Origin: a virus
Taxonomy: Duplodnaviria; Heunggongvirae; Uroviricota; Caudoviricetes
Strand: one strand, 5' to 3'
IMG/VR virus record: IMGVR_UViG_2698536485_000021
DNA length: 36,937 bases
Shown here: positions 1,137 through 28,108 of the stretch, one piece after another
Layout: the number at the start of each line of letters is the position of its first letter
Numbering within the stretch: the stretch's first letter is position 1
Notes under the pieces: model-generated
Told to the model about the DNA's origin: nothing
Databases searched by the model: none
Seen by the model: only the letters and a program-made list of their open reading frames with translations
Made by a program: the position numbers and the translations under genes

Positions 1137-2813
1137 CTAAGCAACATGTAGTTCATCGTTGGCGGAAGTGGCTGCTTTGCGTTCCTGCTCAATAGCTAGT
1201 GACTCTCTATATTCTTTCGCCTCTGCAAACATTGTCCAGTGGGCATTGATGTTCATATCTTCAATAACCGATTTAATTTCTTTAATATTTACGTTAAAAA
1301 ACTCTTTTCGTGAGTTAATTTTATTGACCTGCTTTTCGTTGAAGACTTTATGCAGATGATTTTCTAATGACGGTGCATCATCACTATAAATCATCGCATG
1401 AACATCGAACGAAAAAGGAACACTAGCATCCCCAAGTTCACGAACACGATCAAGTGGTTCAAGGCGGCGTGTCATTCCAATTTTATATACATCTTCGCCA
1501 AATGAGCCAATATTGCTAATTATATAAACATGGCCTGATCTAGTTTGTTGAGCCATAGAAATAGCTCGTTGGTTTTTAGCTTCAGCTTCTTCATATTTTA
1601 ACTGTAGTTCAGCTATTTTTTGCTCTAAAGCTAAGCGTTGTTCTTCATTTGCAAGCATAAGCTCTTTCGTTGCTTTATTTATAGCTTGCTGAATAGCTTT
1701 TTCTTCTTTTTCGGCTTCTTTTATCGCTTTTTCATACTCTCTACGAGCTCTTTCCTCTTCACGAAGCTGTTCTTTAATCCTTCTTTGCTCCTCTTTTTCT
1801 TCGAGCATAATTTCATTAACTGCAACTCCCCATTTTAGCTCGTTGAGTCGTGCCTGAAGATAGATGTCACTTATTTTTGCGGATCTAAAAGCAGAGCCAT
1901 TATAATTTACAAGTTGAAATGCATCTTTTATTTCTTGGGAAAGTTTTCCAAAATTGTTGTGTTTGACTTTTGATAAAATACTGTCAACTCTTCCATTGAA
2001 GGCATCCAAAACAAAGTTGATAGCAGTATTACGCCTGTTTTGCTCAACATAATCACACGAAGCTGCTTTATTAGTTTTTATTAATGATTTTGTTAACTCC
2101 CTGGCTTTTTGTAATTCCTTGCCTGCATCTGTAAACTCATAATTTTCTGCCAATTCATCAAGTACACTACGGTTAGGGATGATCCATTCATCGCCATAAC
2201 CTTCAATTTTATTTTTCATTGATTTGGCAACTGCTTCATATTTTTCTGCAAACTCTTTAGCTTCATATGCTGAACCAGCAATCTCTTTTGCTCTTTCTTC
2301 TGCATCGGAAATAATTTTTACTGCGTTGTCATTAGCATTTGAGATCAGCTCATTTGCTTTACTGTTGGCATTATCAAGACGTTCTTTGGCTTTCAGGCGT
2401 GCATCGCGAGCGTCTTTGGTGATTGCTATAGCTTCGCTATTAGCGTTGCTTATTGTTATCTGAGCTTGATAACTTGCTTCGTTTACTGTCTTAGCTGCCT
2501 TTATTTGGGCTTCTTCTATTTTTTGCCTAGCTATTGAGTCTGCATTTTTTATCTTATTCTCTGCCTCCATCACTGCGCTGTGCAATTCTTCGTATTGCCA
2601 TAATGGTGCTGCTCGCCCTTCAAGCTCTGATAGATCTCGTGCAGTCTGTGCTAACTTTTCTTGATTTTCACTCAGTTGGCTGGAAAGGGCTATGTTGTTA
2701 GCCGTCTGGTTATCTATGGCGGCTTTGTGTTCTTTACTTTGCTTAAATAATATTATAGCTAGAACAGGGGCGAGAAATGCTAATAAGAATATAACGATGG
2801 AAAATGAATTCAT
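1137..2813 (-). CDS. Membrane-anchored coiled-coil protein with C-terminal T5orf172 (GIY-YIG-like) domain; N-terminal part resembles DUF4041
   Basis: 558-aa ORF; N-terminal hydrophobic helix (FSIVIFLLAFLAPVLAIILF); long low-complexity A/E/K/Q-rich helical region; C-terminal GHVYIISN...YKIGMT...FNVNIKEIKSVIE matches the T5orf172 pattern; AGGA RBS 8 nt upstream; region visibly AT-rich. Confidence 0.75.
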   Translation of the reverse strand: MNSFSIVIFLLAFLAPVLAIILFKQSKEHKAAIDNQTANNIALSSQLSENQEKLAQTARDLSELEGRAAPLWQYEELHSAVMEAENKIKNADSIARQKIEEAQIKAAKTVNEASYQAQITISNANSEAIAITKDARDARLKAKERLDNANSKANELISNANDNAVKIISDAEERAKEIAGSAYEAKEFAEKYEAVAKSMKNKIEGYGDEWIIPNRSVLDELAENYEFTDAGKELQKARELTKSLIKTNKAASCDYVEQNRRNTAINFVLDAFNGRVDSILSKVKHNNFGKLSQEIKDAFQLVNYNGSAFRSAKISDIYLQARLNELKWGVAVNEIMLEEKEEQRRIKEQLREEERARREYEKAIKEAEKEEKAIQQAINKATKELMLANEEQRLALEQKIAELQLKYEEAEAKNQRAISMAQQTRSGHVYIISNIGSFGEDVYKIGMTRRLEPLDRVRELGDASVPFSFDVHAMIYSDDAPSLENHLHKVFNEKQVNKINSRKEFFNVNIKEIKSVIEDMNINAHWTMFAEAKEYRESLAIEQERKAATSANDELHVA

Positions 2814-2833: not shown

Positions 2834-3121
2834 TCAATTTGAAACTATTGTACTTCTTATACAAGCAACCACTTCAATATCAGAAAATGCACATTCAAAG
2901 CTATTCTCTGTAGTTGTAATTTTAATCATACCTTTTGGAAGCTTTGTGATTTTTCGAATGGAATAGGTTCCGTCGATGTTGATTAACCAGTGTCCATCAA
3001 GTACTTCAGAAAATTTTTGATCACAAATGTATGTGACAAGCCCATCCTGAATAACAATTGGTGATGAAAGATTTGCAGGAAGAAATGATGAATCGAATAC
3101 ATATGAACCATCTTCAATCAT
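2834..3121 (-). CDS. 95-codon ORF: either the C-terminal domain of an interrupted 186 CI-like repressor or a separate small gene co-transcribed with the T5orf172 gene
   Basis: Same frame as the HTH ORF at 3191-3430, separated only by one TAA (3191-3193) and 23 open codons; weak RBS of its own; AT-rich like the cargo gene. Confidence 0.45.
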   Translation of the reverse strand: MIEDGSYVFDSSFLPANLSSPIVIQDGLVTYICDQKFSEVLDGHWLINIDGTYSIRKITKLPKGMIKITTTENSFECAFSDIEVVACIRSTIVSN

Positions 3122-3190
3122 TTTGCCTGCGGTAAGGCGAAACTTGGGAAGCTCTTCTGTGGCTACTGTCAGCGAGCTTTGCTTAAGTCC

Positions 3191-3430
3191 TTACCCGGTG
3201 GTTAACCATTTCAGTGAGGTTCCTGTTTCAAGAGCACATTGGATTATCCAGTCTGCAGGAAACGTATCCCGCAAATACCTGTTCGCCAGAGTGCTTTTTG
3301 ATACTTCCAAGTGATCAGCTAAAGCCTGTCGTGTCGTAAAGCCATAAGCTTCGACTAATCGCTCAATCGCAGCCTTACCACCTTTATTGGGATTTATTTT
3401 GATCTCACTTGGGTACTTTGATGTTGACAT
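3191..3430 (-). CDS. Immunity repressor, HTH DNA-binding N-terminal domain (186 CI-like); ends at an in-frame TAA
   Basis: 79-aa ORF with HTH-like segment (TTRQALADHLEVSKSTLANRYL); divergent from the apl/cox-like gene across a 95-bp control region, as in P2/186 switches. Confidence 0.7.
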   Translation of the reverse strand: MSTSKYPSEIKINPNKGGKAAIERLVEAYGFTTRQALADHLEVSKSTLANRYLRDTFPADWIIQCALETGTSLKWLTTG

Positions 3431-3525
3431 ATCTCTTTTGCGATCCTGGTATCAGTTTTGTCCCCATTTGGGTACTTGTCACGATTACTACAGGCTCACC
3501 ACAAGCCAATAGGAGATGTTGCATC
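3431..3525. promoter_or_regulatory. Lysis-lysogeny switch region with divergent/face-to-face early promoters and operators (not resolved to base)
   Basis: Short intergenic region between the divergent repressor and apl/cox-like genes; AGGAG RBS at 3511-3515. Confidence 0.4.
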
Positions 3526-3747
3526 ATGACCCCTAACATTTCAATAACTCTGAATACGCCACATGTCACAATTGAGCGTTATAGCGAACTTACTGGTCTT
3601 TCAATCGACACAATTAACGATATGCTGGCTGACGGTCGCATCCCTCGGCATCGCCTTCGGAAAGACAAGAAAAGAGAAAAGGTGATGATCAACCTTGCTG
3701 CTCTTACCGTTGATGCACTTACTGATTGCAATGTTGTATTCAACTAG
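3526..3747 (+). CDS. Cox/Apl-like excisionase and transcriptional regulator
   Basis: 73-aa ORF from ATG 3526 with AGGAG RBS; small basic HTH protein ([23 protein letters not shown]) first in the rightward early operon. Confidence 0.65.
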
Positions 3748-3779
3748 TTCCATTTTGGGATGCATCAGGGGTGTCGACC

Positions 3780-4289
3780 ATGTTTGATTACCAAGTTTCC
3801 AAACATCCACATTTTGATGAAGCCTGTCGTGCATTCGCATTGCGCCACAACCTGGTGCAACTGGCAGAACGTGCTGGCATGAATGTGCAGATTCTGCGGA
3901 ACAAGCTGAACCCATCTCAACCTCATTTATTAACCGCACCAGAAATCTGGCTGCTTACCGATCTGACAGAAGATTCAACGCTGGTAGATGGTTTTCTGGC
4001 ACAGATTCACTGCCTGCCATGTGTACCGATTAATGAGGTTGCAAAAGAGAAACTGCCGCATTACGTCATGAGCGCAACTGCAGAGATCGGACGTGTTGCA
4101 GCAGGTGCGGTATCTGGTGATGTAAAAACTAGTGCCGGTCGTCGTGATGCTATCAGCAGCATTAACTCTGTAACACGACTGATGGCGCTGGCTGCTGTTT
4201 CATTGCAGGCCCGTTTACAGGCTAATCCTGCGATGGCGAGTGCAGTTGATACCGTGACTGGCCTCGGTGCTTCATTCGGTTTGCTGTGA
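3780..4289 (+). CDS. 186 CII-like regulatory protein (Phage_CP76 family)
   Basis: [20 protein letters not shown]... resembles my recollection of 186 CII; position after apl/cox. Confidence 0.65.
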
Positions 4290-10353: not shown

Positions 10354-11856
10354 ATGGCACCCCTATCAATTTTAGAACGTTTACAAAACGCTGCTAACAG
10401 GCAAGATTTGGCTAGTATCTTGAATCTTAAAACTGCTTTTCTTACGGATGTTATTTATCGTTTAAAAGCTGAAACGCAGTATACACAATTTACTATTCCT
10501 AAAAAAAACGGAGCGCCGAGAGTCATATCAGCACCTACCACTAAGCTCAAAGATATTCAACGTAGATTAGCTGATGTTTTATATTTATGTCGTGCAGAAA
10601 TTTATAAAAAATATAATATTAATCCAGTTTTATCTCATGGGTTTGAAAAAGAAAAGTCAATTATTACGAATGCTGAACGGCATAGAGGTAAAACGCTACT
10701 ACTAAATATAGATCTTGAGGATTATTTTGATAGTTTTAATTTTGGACGTGTTAGAGGTTTTTTCTTATCAAACAGAGATTTTAGATTAAATAATACTGTT
10801 GCTACAACGATCGCACAAATTGCATGTTTTCAGAATGGACTTCCTCAAGGAAGCCCATGCTCTCCAATTATAAGTAACTTAATCAGTGGAATTCTTGATA
10901 TAAGATTATCAAAGTTAGCAAAGAAATACGGATGCAATTATTCACGGTATGCTGATGATCTTACATTTTCAACTAATAAAAAAACATTTCCAAAAGAGAT
11001 TGCTGATGTTGGCGGAGAGTCTGTAACCCTAAGTCCAACTTTAATTAAAGAGATTATAAAGGCTGGCTTTAAAATAAATGATAAAAAGACAAGGGTTTGT
11101 TATAAAACATCACGACAAGATGTTACTGGGTTGACTGTTAATAAAAAAGTGAATGTTGGCAAAGAATATGCAAAAGTAACGCGTGCCATGGCTCATTCTC
11201 TTTATAAAGATGGTTCTTTTGTTATTGTTACTGAATCAGGAAAGATTGAAAAAGGTACATGTGCTAAATTAGAAGGCCGTTTTGGATTCATTGACTCAAT
11301 AGATAAATATAATAATTTAAAACTAAAGAATGCAAGACAGTTGGAAAAGTACCAAAGTGTAAATCATGGATTAAATTACACTGCAAAATTGAATTCGAGA
11401 GAAAAAGCCTACAGTTATTTTCTATACTATAAAAATTTTCATGGAATGGAAATGCCAACAATACTCACTGAGGGTAAAACAGACCGTGTATATTTAAAGT
11501 GTGCTTTGAAGTCATTGGCGAATTCATATCCTTTATTGTTTAATTCTTCTGATGATAGCTCTAAAAATGAGTATCGTGTTAATTTTTTTAAAGCAACTGA
11601 AAAAACAAGCTATTTTCTTGACATTTCTGGCGGTGCTACAGACTTCAAAAGATTTATATTAAGATACCAAGAACAAAAAAAGAGGTTCGAGAAATTTAAA
11701 CCAAAGCACCCTGTTATTATGCTTCTTGATAATGACTCAGGCCCTAAAGATTTATTAAATCACTTAAAGGATAAAGTAAAAATTGTCCAAATGATGTTGA
11801 TACTATTCGTAAGGCAAGGTATACCCACATATTTGACAATCTCTATTTGTTATTAA
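10354..11856 (+). CDS. Retron reverse transcriptase fused to a TOPRIM domain (Retron-Eco2/Ec67-like), reading frame broken near the 3' end
   Basis: RT motifs NIDLEDYFDS, QGSPCSPIISN, RYADDLTFS and retron-type VTGLTVN; TOPRIM-like TEGKTD glutamate and LLDNDSG DxD motif. Confidence 0.8.
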   Translation: MAPLSILERLQNAANRQDLASILNLKTAFLTDVIYRLKAETQYTQFTIPKKNGAPRVISAPTTKLKDIQRRLADVLYLCRAEIYKKYNINPVLSHGFEKEKSIITNAERHRGKTLLLNIDLEDYFDSFNFGRVRGFFLSNRDFRLNNTVATTIAQIACFQNGLPQGSPCSPIISNLISGILDIRLSKLAKKYGCNYSRYADDLTFSTNKKTFPKEIADVGGESVTLSPTLIKEIIKAGFKINDKKTRVCYKTSRQDVTGLTVNKKVNVGKEYAKVTRAMAHSLYKDGSFVIVTESGKIEKGTCAKLEGRFGFIDSIDKYNNLKLKNARQLEKYQSVNHGLNYTAKLNSREKAYSYFLYYKNFHGMEMPTILTEGKTDRVYLKCALKSLANSYPLLFNSSDDSSKNEYRVNFFKATEKTSYFLDISGGATDFKRFILRYQEQKKRFEKFKPKHPVIMLLDNDSGPKDLLNHLKDKVKIVQMMLILFVRQGIPTYLTISICY

Positions 11857-15099: not shown

Positions 15100-15933
15100 A
15101 TGACAGTGAAAGCAAAGCGTTTTCGCATCGGGGTGGAAGGTGCCACTACCGACGGACGTGAAATCCAGCGTGAATGGTTGGAACAGATGGCAGCCAGCTA
15201 CAACCCGGCGGTGTATACCGCGCTGATTAACCTTGAGCACATCAAGTCTTATCTGCCGGACAGCACCTTTAACCGCTACGGCAAGGTGACGGCGCTGTTT
15301 GCTGAAGAAATCACGGAAGGTCCGCTGGCGGGCAAGATGGCGCTGTATGCCGACGTTGAGCCAACGGAGTCCCTGGTGGAGCTGGTGAAAAAAGGCCAGA
15401 AATTATTCACCTCTATGGAAGTCAGCCCGAAGTTTGCTGATACGGGCAAAGCCTACCTAGTCGGCCTGGCGGCCACTGATGATCCTGCCAGTCTGGGCAC
15501 TGAAATGCTGACATTCAGCGCCAGTGCAGCCTATAACCCGCTGGCAAACCGCAAGCAGAATCCCGCCAATCTTTTTACCGCTGCAGAGGAAACGGTGAGC
15601 GAACTGGAAGAAATCCAGGAGGACAAGCCGTCCCTGTTTGCCCGTGTCACGGCGCTGTTTACCAAAAAAGAGCAGTCCGATGACGCCCGGTTCTCTGATG
15701 TGCATAAGGCCGTGGAGCTGGTCGCCACTGAGCAGCAGAACCTGAGCGCACGCACCGAAAAATCCCTGTCTGAGCAGGAAGAACGCATGTCTGAGCTGGA
15801 GACTGCTCTGCAGGAGCAGCAAACCGCCTTTAACGAACTGGTGAATAAGCTGAGTCATGAAGACAGCCGCCAGGACTACCGCCAGCGTGCAACAGGCGGT
15901 AACGCCCCCGCTGACACTCTGACCAATTGCTGA
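15100..15933 (+). CDS. O: Capsid scaffolding protein (P2 gpO-like)
   Basis: 277 aa, first gene of the rightward head operon; acidic helical C-terminal half. Confidence 0.8.
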   Translation: MTVKAKRFRIGVEGATTDGREIQREWLEQMAASYNPAVYTALINLEHIKSYLPDSTFNRYGKVTALFAEEITEGPLAGKMALYADVEPTESLVELVKKGQKLFTSMEVSPKFADTGKAYLVGLAATDDPASLGTEMLTFSASAAYNPLANRKQNPANLFTAAEETVSELEEIQEDKPSLFARVTALFTKKEQSDDARFSDVHKAVELVATEQQNLSARTEKSLSEQEERMSELETALQEQQTAFNELVNKLSHEDSRQDYRQRATGGNAPADTLTNC

Positions 15934-15949
15934 TGGAGCACAAAACCTG

Positions 15950-17008
15950 ATGAAGAAGAATACCCGCTTTGCTTTTAACGCTTACCTGCAGCAACTGGCA
16001 CGTCTGAACGGTGTGGCAGTTGAAGAACTGTCCAGCAAGTTCACTGTAGAGCCGTCTGTGCAGCAGACGCTGGAAGACCAGATCCAGCAGTCCGCCGCTT
16101 TCCTGACGCTGATTAACGTCACGCCAGTGACTGAGCAGTCCGGTCAGCTGCTGGGGCTGGGTGTTGGCAGCACCATTGCCGGAACCACTGACACCACCGC
16201 GAAAGAGCGTGAACCTGTCGATCCGACGCTGATGGTCGATGTGGAATACAAATGCGAACAGACCAACTTTGACACGGTGCTGACCTACGCGAAGCTGGAC
16301 CTGTGGGCGAAGTTTCAGGATTTCCAGGTGCGTATCCGTAACGCCATCGTGAAACGTCAGGCACTGGACCGCATCATGATTGGCTTTAACGGAGTGAAGC
16401 GTGCGAAAACCTCTAACCGTAGCGAAAACCCGCTGCTGCAGGATGTGAACAAAGGCTGGCTGCAGAAAATCCGTGAGGATGCACCGGATCACGTCATGGG
16501 CAGCACCACCACGGGCGGTGAAACCATACCGGGTGCGGTGAAAGTCGGGAAAGGTGGCGAATATGCCAACCTGGACGCCGTGGTGATGGATGCGGTCAAT
16601 GAGCTTATCGACGTGGTCTACCAGGACGATGACGATCTGGTGGTGATTTGCGGTCGTGAGCTGCTGTCTGACAAGTATTTCCCGCTGGTCAACAAAGAGC
16701 AGGAAAACAGTGAAAAACTGGCTGCCGATATGATCATCAGTCAGAAACGCATGGGGGGTCTGCAGGCCGTGCGTGCGCCGTTCTTCCCGCCGAATGCGCT
16801 GCTGATCACCCGTCTGGATAACCTGTCCATTTACTGGCAGGAGGACACCCGCCGCCGTTCGGTTATCGACAACCCGAAACGTGACCGGATTGAAAACTTT
16901 GAATCCGTTAACGAAGCCTATGTGGTTGAGGACTACCGCTGCGCAGCACTGGTGGAAAACATCCAGATTGGCGACTTCAGCGCCGCCGCCGCAGAAGCCG
17001 GAGCATAA
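15950..17008 (+). CDS. N: Major capsid protein (P2 gpN-like)
   Basis: 352 aa (P2 N ~357), follows O. Confidence 0.85.
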   Translation: MKKNTRFAFNAYLQQLARLNGVAVEELSSKFTVEPSVQQTLEDQIQQSAAFLTLINVTPVTEQSGQLLGLGVGSTIAGTTDTTAKEREPVDPTLMVDVEYKCEQTNFDTVLTYAKLDLWAKFQDFQVRIRNAIVKRQALDRIMIGFNGVKRAKTSNRSENPLLQDVNKGWLQKIREDAPDHVMGSTTTGGETIPGAVKVGKGGEYANLDAVVMDAVNELIDVVYQDDDDLVVICGRELLSDKYFPLVNKEQENSEKLAADMIISQKRMGGLQAVRAPFFPPNALLITRLDNLSIYWQEDTRRRSVIDNPKRDRIENFESVNEAYVVEDYRCAALVENIQIGDFSAAAAEAGA

Positions 17009-25422: not shown

Positions 25423-26550
25423 TTAGTTAAATGTGTTGATTATTTTTTTTCCAATCTTTATGCATGGTTTTTCAATAGATAAGTAACTTATATATGAAAG
25501 AGAGTAAACTATGGGAAAACATATTATAGATGTTATGAATAACCTTAAAAATGCTGGTTCATGGTGGATCTCGGAATGATTTAACAGGAAGGCGCAAACA
25601 GGTGTTACAATCAGTAAGTGAATTAAGTACACAGAGTATGAAACATCACCAAGCCATACGCTAAATTTATTATTTAATGTTCTTTTGATTTGTTTTTTTA
25701 ATTCATTTTGTTTTGATACGTCGTCGCCATTGACAATATAAAATATAAAAGCGCATAATATTATTTGTATTACCAATTGTTTTGTATTTATATGAATATG
25801 ACTTGTTGATGCAATTATAATTACAAAGATAGCGAGTGCTAGATATGATTTGTTATGTTTAAAAATAGACATATAAACGAGCATTCCGGCAATAAAAATA
25901 GGAAGCTTAATTAAAATAAATGAAGGCATGTGAAACGATTTGAAAAAATCGGGGAAAATAAAAAACATAAAAGTGGATAGTATAGAAGTAATTAATAATG
26001 AAAGCCGCATTCCGAATTTTTCCGCGGCAATCATAATAAATGGGAATATTAAATAATATTGAGTTTCCAATCCTATGCTCCAGTCAGGCAGGGTAGTTCT
26101 GAAACTATAGTCAGGAATCACGCCAAAAATGAAGGAAAGATGTAGCATTATGTTTTTGACTGACTGGTCAGAAAATCTATTTACATCTGTTGCCGTTTGA
26201 GGATAGAAGTCGGCAATGATTTCTCTCATATTTCCAATATATGGGCCGAAATAGATAGCTATAGCTAATAAAATATAATATAGAGGAGCAATACGGAAGA
26301 ATCGCCTAATCCAAAAATTTCTCATTGTACTAAATTTAATCCATGGTTCAATATCTTGTCGTTCAATATAGTTTTTAGTCATCAAGAAACCTGATAAGAG
26401 AATGAACAAATCAACGCCATAAGTTGGTTCACCAAGAATAGGTATTCTGCATTCTGTTAAAATCGCTATATGGCCAATAAATACCCATACAGAGGCAAGT
26501 CCTCTTAGACCTTCAAGCTCAGGAAGCCATCCTTTTCTAGTCATGTGCAT
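25423..26550 (-). CDS. Integral membrane acyltransferase (acyltransferase-3 / OafA-Oac family), probable lysogenic-conversion gene
   Basis: 375 aa, polytopic hydrophobic profile, N-terminal LRGLASVWVFIGH signature; isolated AT-rich gene on the opposite strand between G and FI. Confidence 0.75.
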   Translation of the reverse strand: MHMTRKGWLPELEGLRGLASVWVFIGHIAILTECRIPILGEPTYGVDLFILLSGFLMTKNYIERQDIEPWIKFSTMRNFWIRRFFRIAPLYYILLAIAIYFGPYIGNMREIIADFYPQTATDVNRFSDQSVKNIMLHLSFIFGVIPDYSFRTTLPDWSIGLETQYYLIFPFIMIAAEKFGMRLSLLITSILSTFMFFIFPDFFKSFHMPSFILIKLPIFIAGMLVYMSIFKHNKSYLALAIFVIIIASTSHIHINTKQLVIQIILCAFIFYIVNGDDVSKQNELKKQIKRTLNNKFSVWLGDVSYSVYLIHLLIVTPVCAFLLNHSEIHHEPAFLRLFITSIICFPIVYSLSYISYLSIEKPCIKIGKKIINTFN

Positions 26551-26841
26551 ATGCTTTGAATCTTCATTTGATAGGGGAAGTGAATTATATCGCCGCTTTA
26601 TAAATATGCCATCAAAAATTCATATCGAATATAGGAATGCACTCGAACCAATCGGTAAGGGAGTGTCTGACCGAAAGTGAGTTTGGATTATATTCAAACA
26701 TAGACAAATAATATTGGCTTCTGGTTAATATATAGATATTGATGTGGTTTGTCACAATTTTTTAACAATGCAGGTTGTAACAAGTTCATCGGGAGCAGCA
26801 TTATGTTGATTATCCCTGCAAGCGGACAAATACCGTTATTT

Positions 26842-26859
26842 TGTGTGAATAACGGTACA
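26842..26859. promoter_or_regulatory. Ogr-dependent late promoter element TGT-N12-ACA upstream of FI
   Basis: TGT 26842-26844, ACA 26857-26859, embedded in a 9-bp inverted repeat ACCGTTATT/AATAACGGT. Confidence 0.5.
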
Positions 26860-26935
26860 ACTGCGCTTAGCTGTTTGTCAGGCACAATCACTTCAATATA
26901 GGGCGAAGCCTAATCCAATCAGGAGGTTCGCCACT

Positions 26936-28108
26936 ATGGCTCAGGATTACCACCACGGGGTGCGCGTTGTTGAAGTCAACGAAGGCACCCGATCCATTAC
27001 CACGGTGAGCACCGCCATCGTGGGTATGGTCTGCACGGGCGATGATGCCGATGCAAAAATGTTTCCTCTTAATAAACCCGTGCTGATCACTGATGTGCTG
27101 ACTGCCAGCGGTAAAGCGGGTGAGTCCGGCACGCTGGCCCGTTCGCTGGATGCCATCGCTGACCAGGCAAAACCCGTGACCGTTGTTGTGCGTGTGCCGC
27201 AGGGTGAAACGGAAGAAGAAACCACGACCAATATCATCGGCGCAGTGACTGCTGAAGGTAAAAAAACAGGCATGAAAGCTCTGTTATCTGCCCAGTCACA
27301 GCTCGGCGTTAAACCGCGCATTCTCGGCGTGCCAGGCCACGATAACAAAGCCGTTGCGACTGAGTTGCTGAGCGTGGCGCAAAGCCTGCGTGGATTTGCT
27401 TACCTGTCAGCGTATGGCTGCAAGACAGTGCAGGAGGCGATCACTTACCGCGAAAACTTCAGCCAGCGCGAAGGGATGCTGATCTGGCCTGACTTTACTG
27501 GCTGGGACACGGTGCTGAATGCCGAAGCAACGGCATATGCCACCGCCCGTGCGCTTGGTCTGCGCGCCAAAATTGACGAGCAGACCGGATGGCACAAAAG
27601 CCTGTCCAACGTGGGCGTGAACGGTGTCACCGGAATTTCTGCAGATGTGTTCTGGGATCTGCAGGACCCGGCAACCGATGCAGGTCTGCTGAACCAGAAC
27701 GACGTCACCACGCTTGTGCGCAAGGACGGTTTCCGCTTCTGGGGTTCCCGCTGCCTGAGTGATGACCCGCTCTTTGCCTTCGAAAACTACACCCGCACGG
27801 CGCAGGTGCTGATGGACACGATGGCAGAAGCACACATGTGGGCGGTGGATAAACCGCTTAACCCGTCGCTGGCCCGCGACATTATCGAAGGTATCCGCGC
27901 CAAAATGCGCAGCCTGGTCAGTCAGGGCTATCTCATTGGTGGTGATTGCTGGCTGGATGAGTCGGTGAACGACAAAGACACGCTGAAAGCCGGAAAACTC
28001 ACCATCGACTATGACTACACGCCAGTGCCGCCACTTGAAAATCTGATGCTGCGCCAGCGCATCACCGATCAGTACCTGGTGAATTTCGCCAGCCAGGTCA
28101 GCGCGTAA
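26936..28108 (+). CDS. FI: Tail sheath protein (P2 gpFI-like)
   Basis: 390 aa; N-terminus [19 protein letters not shown]...[11 protein letters not shown] closely resembles P2 FI. Confidence 0.9.

What the first reader, a model, noticed from the sequence alone, without database searches (positions are those of the whole stretch)
2834..3430. CI-like repressor reading frame interrupted by an in-frame TAA
The 79-aa HTH ORF (3191-3430) and the 95-aa ORF (2834-3121) are in the same frame on the minus strand, separated by one TAA (3191-3193) and 23 open codons. Joined they give about 198 codons, close to the ~192 aa of 186 CI (HTH N-domain plus oligomerisation C-domain). A prophage with a truncated repressor should not be stably maintained unless the fragment still represses or the prophage is otherwise defective. 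The C-terminal part is more AT-rich than the N-terminal part, so the alternative is a mosaic junction where the 95-aa ORF belongs to the cargo gene downstream.
Basis: partly seen in the sequence, partly recalled or inferred. Interest (0 to 1): 0.65.

Follow-up and report, generated by a model that had tools for sequence, protein, structure and literature searches.

The report
Broken repressor in a disarmed prophage
The interrupted gene is a real but ordinary pseudogene: a 186-type phage repressor killed by one CAA-to-TAA change, in a cattle E. coli lineage whose prophage also carries a crippling mutation in the lytic promoter that this repressor normally silences, which probably explains why the host survives.

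Summary
On the minus strand, 3430..2834 is one 198-codon frame: 79 codons, TAA (3191-3193), 23 codons, then 95 codons. With the stop read through, it has both Pfam domains of phage 186 CI and is 33% identical to 186 CI. The ancestral codon is CAA (Gln80); LR-50 carries a cI gene otherwise identical to the window's. RefSeq already marks the gene as a pseudogene with an internal stop.

The TAA is not a sequencing error. It is in six independent complete genomes from Germany, the USA and Japan; the two typed strains are STEC ST300.

The same six genomes, and no others, share two more lesions:
- An A-to-G change at window 3448. It destroys the key A in the -10 box of the predicted early lytic promoter pR (TTGACA-17-TAGTAT becomes TGGTAT).
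- An amber codon in the tail tape-measure gene (29288-29290).

No second copy of the repressor's DNA-binding domain was found in the four carrier chromosomes listed in that search. The isolated N-terminal domain of 186 CI is reported not to work in vivo.

Best reading: a grounded prophage whose lytic promoter is dead, so the repressor is dispensable. This is ordinary prophage decay with a tidy genetic explanation. The mosaic-junction alternative is rejected.

The parts
2834..3430 (-). cI pseudogene: a 186-type immunity repressor of 198 codons with one internal TAA
   Evidence: RefSeq marks it 'phage repressor protein CI, internal stop'.
3191..3193 (-). Premature TAA at codon 80. The ancestral codon is CAA (Gln), a C-to-T transition. 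It aligns with Glu72 of 186 CI, just after the last helix of the HTH domain.
   Evidence: Alignment with LR-50, L73 and 2014C-3061. The exact 61-mer is in 6 of 63 genomes. Among fetched loci, CAA is in 13 and TAA only in lineage loci.
3194..3430 (-). Remaining 79-aa ORF: the complete Phage_CI_repr HTH domain without linker or oligomerisation domain
   Evidence: Pfam residues 20-83. The DNA is 100% identical to the N-terminal part of intact alleles in many genomes.
2834..3190 (-). Untranslated remnant: 23 linker codons plus the Phage_CI_C oligomerisation domain. The 95-aa ORF from the ATG at 3121 would lack the start of the domain.
   Evidence: Pfam residues 94-190. 2FKD aligns from residue 97. 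No difference from the LR-50 allele downstream of the stop.
3424..3452 (+). Predicted early lytic promoter pR. The -35 box TTGACA (3424-3429) overlaps the cI start codon. After a 17-nt spacer, the -10 box at 3447-3452 reads TGGTAT here and TAGTAT in all relatives.
   Evidence: This is the only promoter-like site in the LR-50 switch region (10/12 match), and the scan finds none in the window. The same scan recovers the annotated pR of 186, and one promoter with the same geometry in two other phages of this group.
3448..3448 (+). Lineage-specific A-to-G change at position 2 (-11) of the pR -10 hexamer
   Evidence: The exact 61-mer occurs in the same 6 of 166 genomes. All 20 IMG/VR contigs have A.
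3516..3544 (-). Candidate lysogenic promoter pL, TTGAAA-17-CAACAT, facing pR. It is unchanged in the lineage.
   Evidence: Read from the sequence. Its -10 box lies 5-10 nt before the apl ATG, exactly as for the annotated pL of 186. It scores below the scan threshold, so this is inference.
3526..3747 (+). apl/cox-like gene, first gene of the early lytic operon. Intact.
   Evidence: WP_000188448.1, identical in relatives with intact cI.
3780..4289 (+). cII-family gene. Intact.
   Evidence: WP_000460897.1.
1137..2813 (-). Cargo gene, starting 20 nt after the cI stop: DUF4041 plus a T5orf172/MUG113 nuclease domain (PGAP: SNIPE-associated). It lies in the same operon as cI and int.
   Evidence: SNIPE paper PMC13190303.
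1..1053 (-). Phage integrase. Intact.
29117..32194 (+). Tail tape-measure pseudogene with TAG at 29288-29290 (codon 58; AAG Lys in LF82)
   Evidence: The exact 63-mer occurs in the same 6 of 205 genomes.

Best explanation
The window holds a P2-like prophage with a 186-type immunity switch, inserted between rcdA and ybjL/rybB in E. coli 13E0725 (STEC O182:H25, ST300).

Shown:
- Its cI gene was inactivated recently by a single CAA-to-TAA change at codon 80. Only the 79-aa HTH domain can be made. The linker and the oligomerisation domain are lost.
- The early lytic promoter pR normally reads TTGACA-17-TAGTAT and overlaps the cI start codon. In this lineage its -10 box reads TGGTAT.
- A third lesion, an amber codon in the tape-measure gene, means no infectious particle could be assembled anyway.

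Inferred:
- The host tolerates the loss of CI because the pR change removes the -11 adenine that sigma-70 needs to open the promoter. Transcription of apl, cII and the replication genes should therefore be very low with or without repressor.
- In 186, pR suppresses the facing promoter pL by transcriptional interference. A dead pR should therefore leave pL on constitutively. pL would then transcribe the cI remnant, the SNIPE-type defence gene and int.

The order of the two switch mutations cannot be resolved from these data. Either pR went down first and cI then decayed neutrally, or the cI nonsense came first and survivors were selected for a dead pR.
For: - Intact versus broken alleles: CAA in relatives, TAA here, and the LR-50 cI is otherwise identical. 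RefSeq marks a pseudogene in 13E0725, 2014C-3061 and OkiPb01680.
- Both CI domains are present in the joined frame.
- The same six genomes carry the exact 61-63-mers for the TAA (6 of 63), the pR G (6 of 166) and the tape-measure TAG (6 of 205).
- These six genomes are about 100% identical over 9 kb of early region. The next relative is 96.6% identical.
- pR assignment: it is the sole promoter-like site in the LR-50 switch (10/12 match), pointing at apl, and it is lost in the window.
- Positive control: the same scan finds exactly the annotated pR in 186, and one TTGACA-17 promoter 67-87 nt upstream of apl/cox in two other phages.
- All 20 IMG/VR contigs have A at the mutated base.
- No repressor in trans was found: the N-terminal domain coding DNA occurs once in each of the four carrier chromosomes listed, even in distant blastn. 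There is no tRNA in the prophage.
- The 186 CI N-terminal domain 'dimerizes weakly ... but is unable to function in vivo' (PMC3991615 citing Shearwin et al. 2002).
- From established knowledge: -11A is the most critical base of the -10 element, and 186 pR interferes with pL.
Against: - pR is predicted, not mapped, in this phage group. Its -35 box sits about 20 nt closer to cI than in 186.
- The effect of A-to-G at -11 on this particular promoter was not measured.
- The mutated base could also lie in a CI operator.
- The statement about the 186 N-terminal domain is second-hand, and this CI is only 33% identical to 186 CI.
- No close intact sibling of the whole prophage exists (the next relative is 96.6% identical). 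Additional inactivating missense changes in early or late genes therefore cannot be excluded as the real cause of tolerance.
- All other prophage ORFs, including replication, lysis and ogr, are annotated intact.
- The ogr upstream region is a common, unmutated allele. How late and lysis genes stay silent rests on the assumption that they need early functions or replication.
Confidence: 0.72

Rival explanations
1. The 79-aa HTH fragment is still a working repressor, in the way that the short C repressors of P2 work. It would keep the prophage silent and confer immunity, and the pR base change would be incidental or would tune an operator.
For: The fragment contains the whole Phage_CI_repr domain, and its DNA is unchanged relative to intact alleles. 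With pR down and no negative autoregulation by a CI wheel, the fragment could accumulate. P2-type repressors of about 99 aa do work alone (PMC2995052, listed).
Against: The isolated 186 CI N-terminal domain binds DNA very weakly and is reported not to function in vivo. High-affinity binding in 186 depends on the oligomer built by the C-terminal domain (PMC3675496). The P2 C and 186 CI types are considered to be of different origin (PMC3448106). The co-occurring loss of -11A is hard to dismiss as coincidence.
Confidence: 0.12
2. The prophage is kept harmless by some other lesion, such as a missense change in the replication or late genes. The pR change would then be a neutral passenger.
For: The tape-measure amber shows the prophage is already decaying. 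The nearest relative of the early region is only 96.6% identical, so missense lesions cannot be scored.
Against: Every other ORF is annotated full length. A tail defect does not prevent replication or lysis. Only two lineage-specific changes exist in the roughly 1 kb immunity module, against near-identical alleles in 160 genomes. One of them hits the single most critical promoter base.
Confidence: 0.1
3. Full-length CI is still made, by readthrough, by a suppressor, or from two pieces (the N-terminal domain plus a C-terminal piece restarted at the ATG at 3121).
For: A weak AGG lies 4 nt before the ATG at 3121 (sequence). The downstream frame is still open.
Against: UAA is the stop codon least prone to readthrough. 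There is no tRNA in the prophage. The second nonsense codon of the prophage is TAG, so a single suppressor would not explain both. Relatives simply have CAA, so nothing is programmed. A restart at codon 104 would miss the beginning of the C-terminal domain, which starts at about residue 94.
Confidence: 0.03
4. The stop is a sequencing or assembly error, or a mosaic junction where the 95-aa ORF belongs to the cargo gene.
For: The C-terminal part is more AT-rich (GC 0.33) and resembles the cargo gene (0.38). DNA similarity to Klebsiella phage cI genes ends near the domain boundary.
Against: The TAA is in six independent complete assemblies from three countries. The 95-aa ORF is a Phage_CI_C domain. 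Intact 198-aa alleles have the same AT-rich C-terminal part.
Confidence: 0.01

Closest known systems
Phage 186 CI immunity repressor (NP_052279; PDB 2FJR, 2FKD) and the 186 pR/pL switch
   Same: Same two-domain architecture, Phage_CI_repr plus Phage_CI_C, with 33% identity over 172 residues. Same gene order: int, cI, then apl, cII and fil in the opposite direction. pR lies next to the cI start and fires towards apl, with a facing pL whose -10 box sits 5-10 nt before the apl ATG.
   Different: The gene here is a pseudogene cut at the residue aligned with Glu72 of 186. The pR -35 box overlaps the cI start codon instead of lying 15 nt beyond it. A defence gene is inserted between cI and int. No tum-type antirepressor was annotated. 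The late region is P2/W-phi-like; the ogr upstream region is identical to that in E. coli W.
Intact alleles of the same repressor (WP_000107904.1 in LR-50, WP_000107902.1 in L73; phages KP12 and vB_EcoM-813R9)
   Same: The LR-50 allele is identical to the window's cI apart from codon 80; the listed alleles are 95-99.7% identical in DNA. Same switch region and the same SNIPE-type cargo gene.
   Different: They have CAA at codon 80 and TAGTAT in pR. The rest of each prophage is mosaic, with different cargo.
Defective ('grounded') prophages produced by regulatory and structural mutations, such as the cryptic prophages of E. coli K-12 or survivors of lambda cI857 induction
   Same: Loss of lytic competence through point mutations, with retention of cargo genes useful to the host. 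A repressor that has become dispensable. This comparison rests on my own knowledge.
   Different: This one is very young. There are three point lesions, no deletions and no further decay after the stop.

Membership tests
186-type CI repressor (Pfam Phage_CI_repr + Phage_CI_C) | N-terminal CI-type helix-turn-helix domain | tested here: met
   PF07022, residues 20-83, E=8e-32, 110 bits against a cutoff of 22.
186-type CI repressor (Pfam Phage_CI_repr + Phage_CI_C) | C-terminal CI oligomerisation domain in the same polypeptide | tested here: not met
   The domain is encoded (PF16452, residues 94-190, E=2.5e-27), but it lies downstream of the TAA at codon 80. It is met in intact alleles.
186-type CI repressor (Pfam Phage_CI_repr + Phage_CI_C) | Sequence homology to the 186 CI structure across both domains | tested here: met
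   2FJR E=1e-26. BLASTP 33% identity, E=1e-34.
186-type lysis-lysogeny switch | cI transcribed opposite to apl-cII, with face-to-face pR and pL between them | tested here: inconclusive
   Gene order is met. pR is predicted with 10/12 match in relatives, with the 186 positive control. pL is only a match of 8/12 in the geometry of 186. No start sites have been mapped.
186-type lysis-lysogeny switch | CI binding to operators at pR and repression of pR | not testable with these tools
   Only a 31-nt direct repeat flanking pR was seen as a candidate operator.
Functional (inducible, infectious) prophage | Intact repressor, intact early promoter and intact structural genes | tested here: not met
   cI TAA, pR -11 A-to-G, tape-measure TAG.

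The most novel reading that the evidence does not exclude
The truncation could be adaptive rather than decay. In the ST300 cattle-colonising lineage, the paired pR-down and cI-Q80* mutations would lock pL permanently on. That would raise expression of the downstream SNIPE-type nuclease, while the free 79-aa HTH domain would still give partial immunity to homoimmune phages. On this reading, the phage switch has been rewired into a constitutive promoter for a host defence gene.
Probability: 0.1. Interest if true: 0.45.

Novelty: already known. Interest (0 to 1): 0.2.

Why it matters
It matters little beyond this lineage. The locus is a clean natural example of how a prophage becomes grounded without deletions: three point mutations hit the repressor, the lytic promoter and the tail. 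It also shows that an interrupted repressor should prompt a look at the promoter it controls. For the ST300 O156/O182:H25 STEC lineage, the three lesions are a shared clonal marker. They suggest that the prophage's defence cargo (a SNIPE-type nuclease and an Ec67-type retron) is now fixed host property rather than mobile.

Tried and rejected
- Mosaic junction, or the 95-aa ORF belonging to the cargo gene: rejected by Pfam and by intact alleles.
- Sequencing error: rejected by six assemblies.
- Trans-acting second repressor copy: none was found in the four carrier chromosomes listed, even in distant blastn.
- Prophage-encoded suppressor tRNA or a structured RNA at the site: none found.
- A lesion in the ogr (late activator) promoter: the window's allele is shared by 55 genomes, including E. 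coli W, so it is not lineage-specific.
- A third immunity-region difference at window 3762, upstream of cII: it is an ordinary polymorphism also present in Klebsiella and ESSI2 phages.
- Phylogenetic footprint of pR using Klebsiella phages: the intergenic region is not alignable. I used promoter scans on each phage instead.
- Search for a near-identical intact sibling of the whole prophage, to list every lineage-specific change: none exists in the collection, and the next best is 96.6% identical.
- Scripted comparison of fetched loci failed because most loci are not exposed to the script machine. I used DNA alignment instead.
- I did not run structure prediction or large protein searches. Sequence evidence was already decisive.

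Full report
**1. Observation**

On the minus strand, window 3430 to 2834 is a single frame of 198 codons. It reads 79 codons (MSTSKYPSEIK...LKWLTTG), TAA at 3191-3193, 23 open codons (GLKQSSLTVATEELPKFRLTAGK), then the 95-aa ORF starting at the ATG at 3121.

**2. Identity**

With the stop read as Gln, the product has two Pfam domains:
- Phage_CI_repr, residues 20-83, E=8e-32.
- Phage_CI_C, residues 94-190, E=2.5e-27.

It matches the full-length 186 CI structure 2FJR at E=1e-26, and the C-terminal 14-mer structure 2FKD. It is 33% identical to 186 CI over 172 residues (E=1e-34). The stop aligns with Glu72 in the motif LTG-E-G, directly after the last helix of the DNA-binding domain.

The 23-codon linker has counterparts in 186 CI and in Klebsiella phage 4LV2017 CI. 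The 95-aa ORF is therefore the repressor's own oligomerisation domain and not part of the cargo gene.

**3. Source and context**

The window is E. coli 13E0725 (NZ_CP020092.1, 3441616-3478552, reversed). This strain is an STEC O182:H25 of ST300 that colonises cattle persistently (PMC5427212).

The window holds a complete P2-like prophage with a 186-type immunity region, lying between rcdA and ybjL/rybB. Its contents, in order, are:
- int, then a DUF4041/SNIPE-type gene, then cI on one strand.
- apl, cII, fil, dam, the replication endonuclease and an Ec67-family retron reverse transcriptase on the other.
- Then the head, lysis and tail genes, and ogr.

RefSeq already annotates the gene as 'phage repressor protein CI, internal stop' in three of the carrier genomes I inspected.

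**4. The ancestral state**

Strains L73 and LR-50 and the phage records KP12 and vB_EcoM-813R9 carry an uninterrupted 597-nt cI. In the alignment, codon 80 is CAA in LR-50 and L73 and TAA in the window. The LR-50 gene is otherwise identical to the window's, both upstream and downstream of the stop.

So the lesion is a single recent C-to-T transition, and no further decay has followed it.

**5. Distribution**

- The exact 61-mer centred on the TAA occurs in 6 of the 63 E. coli complete genomes that match this stretch.
- The six are 13E0725 and 13E0780 (German cattle; both ST300, serotypes O182:H25 and O156:H25), 2014C-3061 (human stool, USA), and OkiPb01680, OkiPb01683 and OkiPb01700 (bovine faeces, Japan).
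- These six are essentially identical over 9 kb of the early region, and the next relative is 96.6% identical.
- 13E0725 and 2014C-3061 share the same flanking host alleles.
- Among the 13 fetched loci that match a 23-mer spanning this codon, outside the lineage, all have CAA.

The stop is therefore real, derived, and vertically inherited in one clone. A prophage with this cI has been maintained stably across continents.

**6. Why the host tolerates it**

The alignment shows only one other lineage-specific change in the roughly 1 kb immunity module. It lies 18 nt upstream of the cI ATG. On the plus strand, window 3448 is G where LR-50, L73, KP12 and 813R9 have A.

On the plus strand the region reads TTGACA (3424-3429, overlapping the cI start codon), then 17 nt, then TAGTAT (3447-3452). 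This element points towards apl, whose ATG is at 3526.

Evidence that this element is pR:
- The consensus scan finds it (10 of 12 matches) as the only promoter-like site in the switch region of LR-50.
- The scan finds nothing in the window, because the A at position 2 of the -10 hexamer is gone.
- As a positive control, the same scan on phage 186 returns exactly one site, the experimentally annotated pR (TTTACT-17-TATATT).
- In two further phages of this group, the scan returns one TTGACA-17 promoter aimed at apl/cox.
- In all four phages, the -10 box lies 67-87 nt upstream of apl/cox.

Distribution of the G allele:
- The exact 61-mer carrying G at 3448 is found in the same six genomes, out of 166 that have the region.
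- All 20 IMG/VR contigs matching the surrounding pattern have A.

From established promoter biology, -11A is the base that sigma-70 flips out to nucleate DNA melting, and it is the least replaceable position of the -10 element. The most economical reading is that pR is a strong down-mutant in this lineage. The early lytic operon would then stay silent without a repressor.

**7. Other ways of keeping the prophage quiet**

- Repressor in trans: distant blastn with the N-terminal domain coding DNA finds a single place in each of the four carrier chromosomes listed, namely 13E0725, 13E0780, 2014C-3061 and OkiPb01680.
- Suppression: the prophage has no tRNA. Its second nonsense codon is TAG, not TAA.
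- Function of the fragment: the isolated N-terminal domain of 186 CI is reported to dimerise weakly, to bind operators very weakly and to be unable to function in vivo (PMC3991615 citing Shearwin et al. 2002). Strong binding in 186 depends on the wheel built by the C-terminal domains (PMC3675496).
- Restart: a restart at the ATG at 3121 would give a C-terminal piece that lacks the start of its domain.

**8. Further decay**

The tape-measure gene (29117-32194) has TAG at 29288-29290 where LF82 has AAG (Lys58). This lesion too is confined to the same six genomes, out of 205 with the region.

All other prophage ORFs are annotated full length. The region upstream of ogr is a common allele shared with 55 genomes, including E. 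coli W. A difference at 3762, upstream of cII, is an ordinary polymorphism.

**9. Mechanism proposed**

Shown: cI is truncated after the HTH domain, the -10 box of the predicted pR has lost its key A, the tail gene is broken, and all three lesions are clonal.

Inferred:
- pR is nearly inactive, so CI is dispensable.
- A candidate pL, TTGAAA(3544-3539)-17-CAACAT(3521-3516), faces pR. It has the same geometry as the annotated pL of 186.
- In 186, pR suppresses pL by transcriptional interference. A dead pR should therefore leave pL constitutively active.
- pL would then transcribe the cI remnant, the SNIPE-type gene that starts 20 nt after the cI stop, and int. Polarity from the premature stop could dampen this.

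The order of the two switch mutations cannot be resolved, because no intermediate genome is in the collection.

**10.

The AT-rich C-terminal half is present unchanged in intact alleles, so it does not mark the interruption.

There is a grain of truth at a deeper level. DNA similarity to Klebsiella phage cI genes stops at about window 3195-3203, the domain boundary. At protein level, the C-terminal domain is much more diverged than the N-terminal one. CI domains therefore appear to evolve or be exchanged as modules, but this is unrelated to the TAA.

**11. Verdict**

This is a correctly spotted, real and already annotated pseudogene in a young defective prophage. The added value here is the linked promoter mutation, which explains its stability.

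This is ordinary prophage domestication, of modest interest (0.2). The kind of feature is already known.

Noticed in passing
window 29117-32194 (+); TAG at 29288-29290: The tail tape-measure gene carries an amber codon at codon 58 (AAG in LF82). It is confined to the same six genomes as the cI stop.
   Followed up: yes
window 1137-2813 (-): A 558-aa cargo gene lies between cI and int. It has an N-terminal hydrophobic segment, a DUF4041 domain and a T5orf172/MUG113 nuclease domain, and newer PGAP calls it 'SNIPE associated domain-containing protein'. SNIPE is a membrane nuclease that cuts phage DNA during injection (PMC13190303). The gene starts 20 nt after the cI stop, so it is probably co-transcribed from pL.
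   Followed up: partly
window ~10354-11856 (+): A retron Ec67-family reverse transcriptase/endonuclease sits in the prophage between the replication region and the portal gene. No Rfam match to an msr/msd RNA reached threshold.
   Followed up: no
window ~25423-26544 (-): An acyltransferase-family gene is inserted between the tail-sheath and tail-fibre-assembly genes, on the opposite strand. It may be a serotype-modifying moron.
   Followed up: no
window 34160-34238 (-): The RybB small RNA (Rfam, 105 bits) lies about 80 nt beyond ogr. The prophage end and attachment site therefore abut rybB.
   Followed up: no
L035:1404-2345 (-) (Klebsiella phage 4LV2017, KY271398.1): The annotated 313-aa CI has two tandem Phage_CI_repr HTH domains (58% and about 70% identical to the window's N-terminal domain) followed by one Phage_CI_C domain. 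This is an unusual duplicated-HTH repressor, unless the annotated start is wrong.
   Followed up: partly
window ~3195-3203: Nucleotide similarity to Klebsiella phage cI genes (84-88%) ends at the boundary between the N-terminal and C-terminal domains. Protein similarity continues at lower identity, which suggests module-level mosaicism of CI repressors.
   Followed up: partly
window 3388-3418 and 3447-3477 (+): A 31-nt direct repeat (74% identity, 59-nt spacing) has both copies ending in TTGGGTACTT. One copy lies inside the first codons of cI and the other starts at the pR -10 box. These are candidate CI operators and are untested.
   Followed up: no
L005 (E. coli LR-50) 15473-16696 and 26002-27894: A prophage with the same immunity module carries different cargo at the same hotspots: a SIR2-family protein and a P-loop NTPase instead of the retron. 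This illustrates cargo turnover in this phage group.
   Followed up: no
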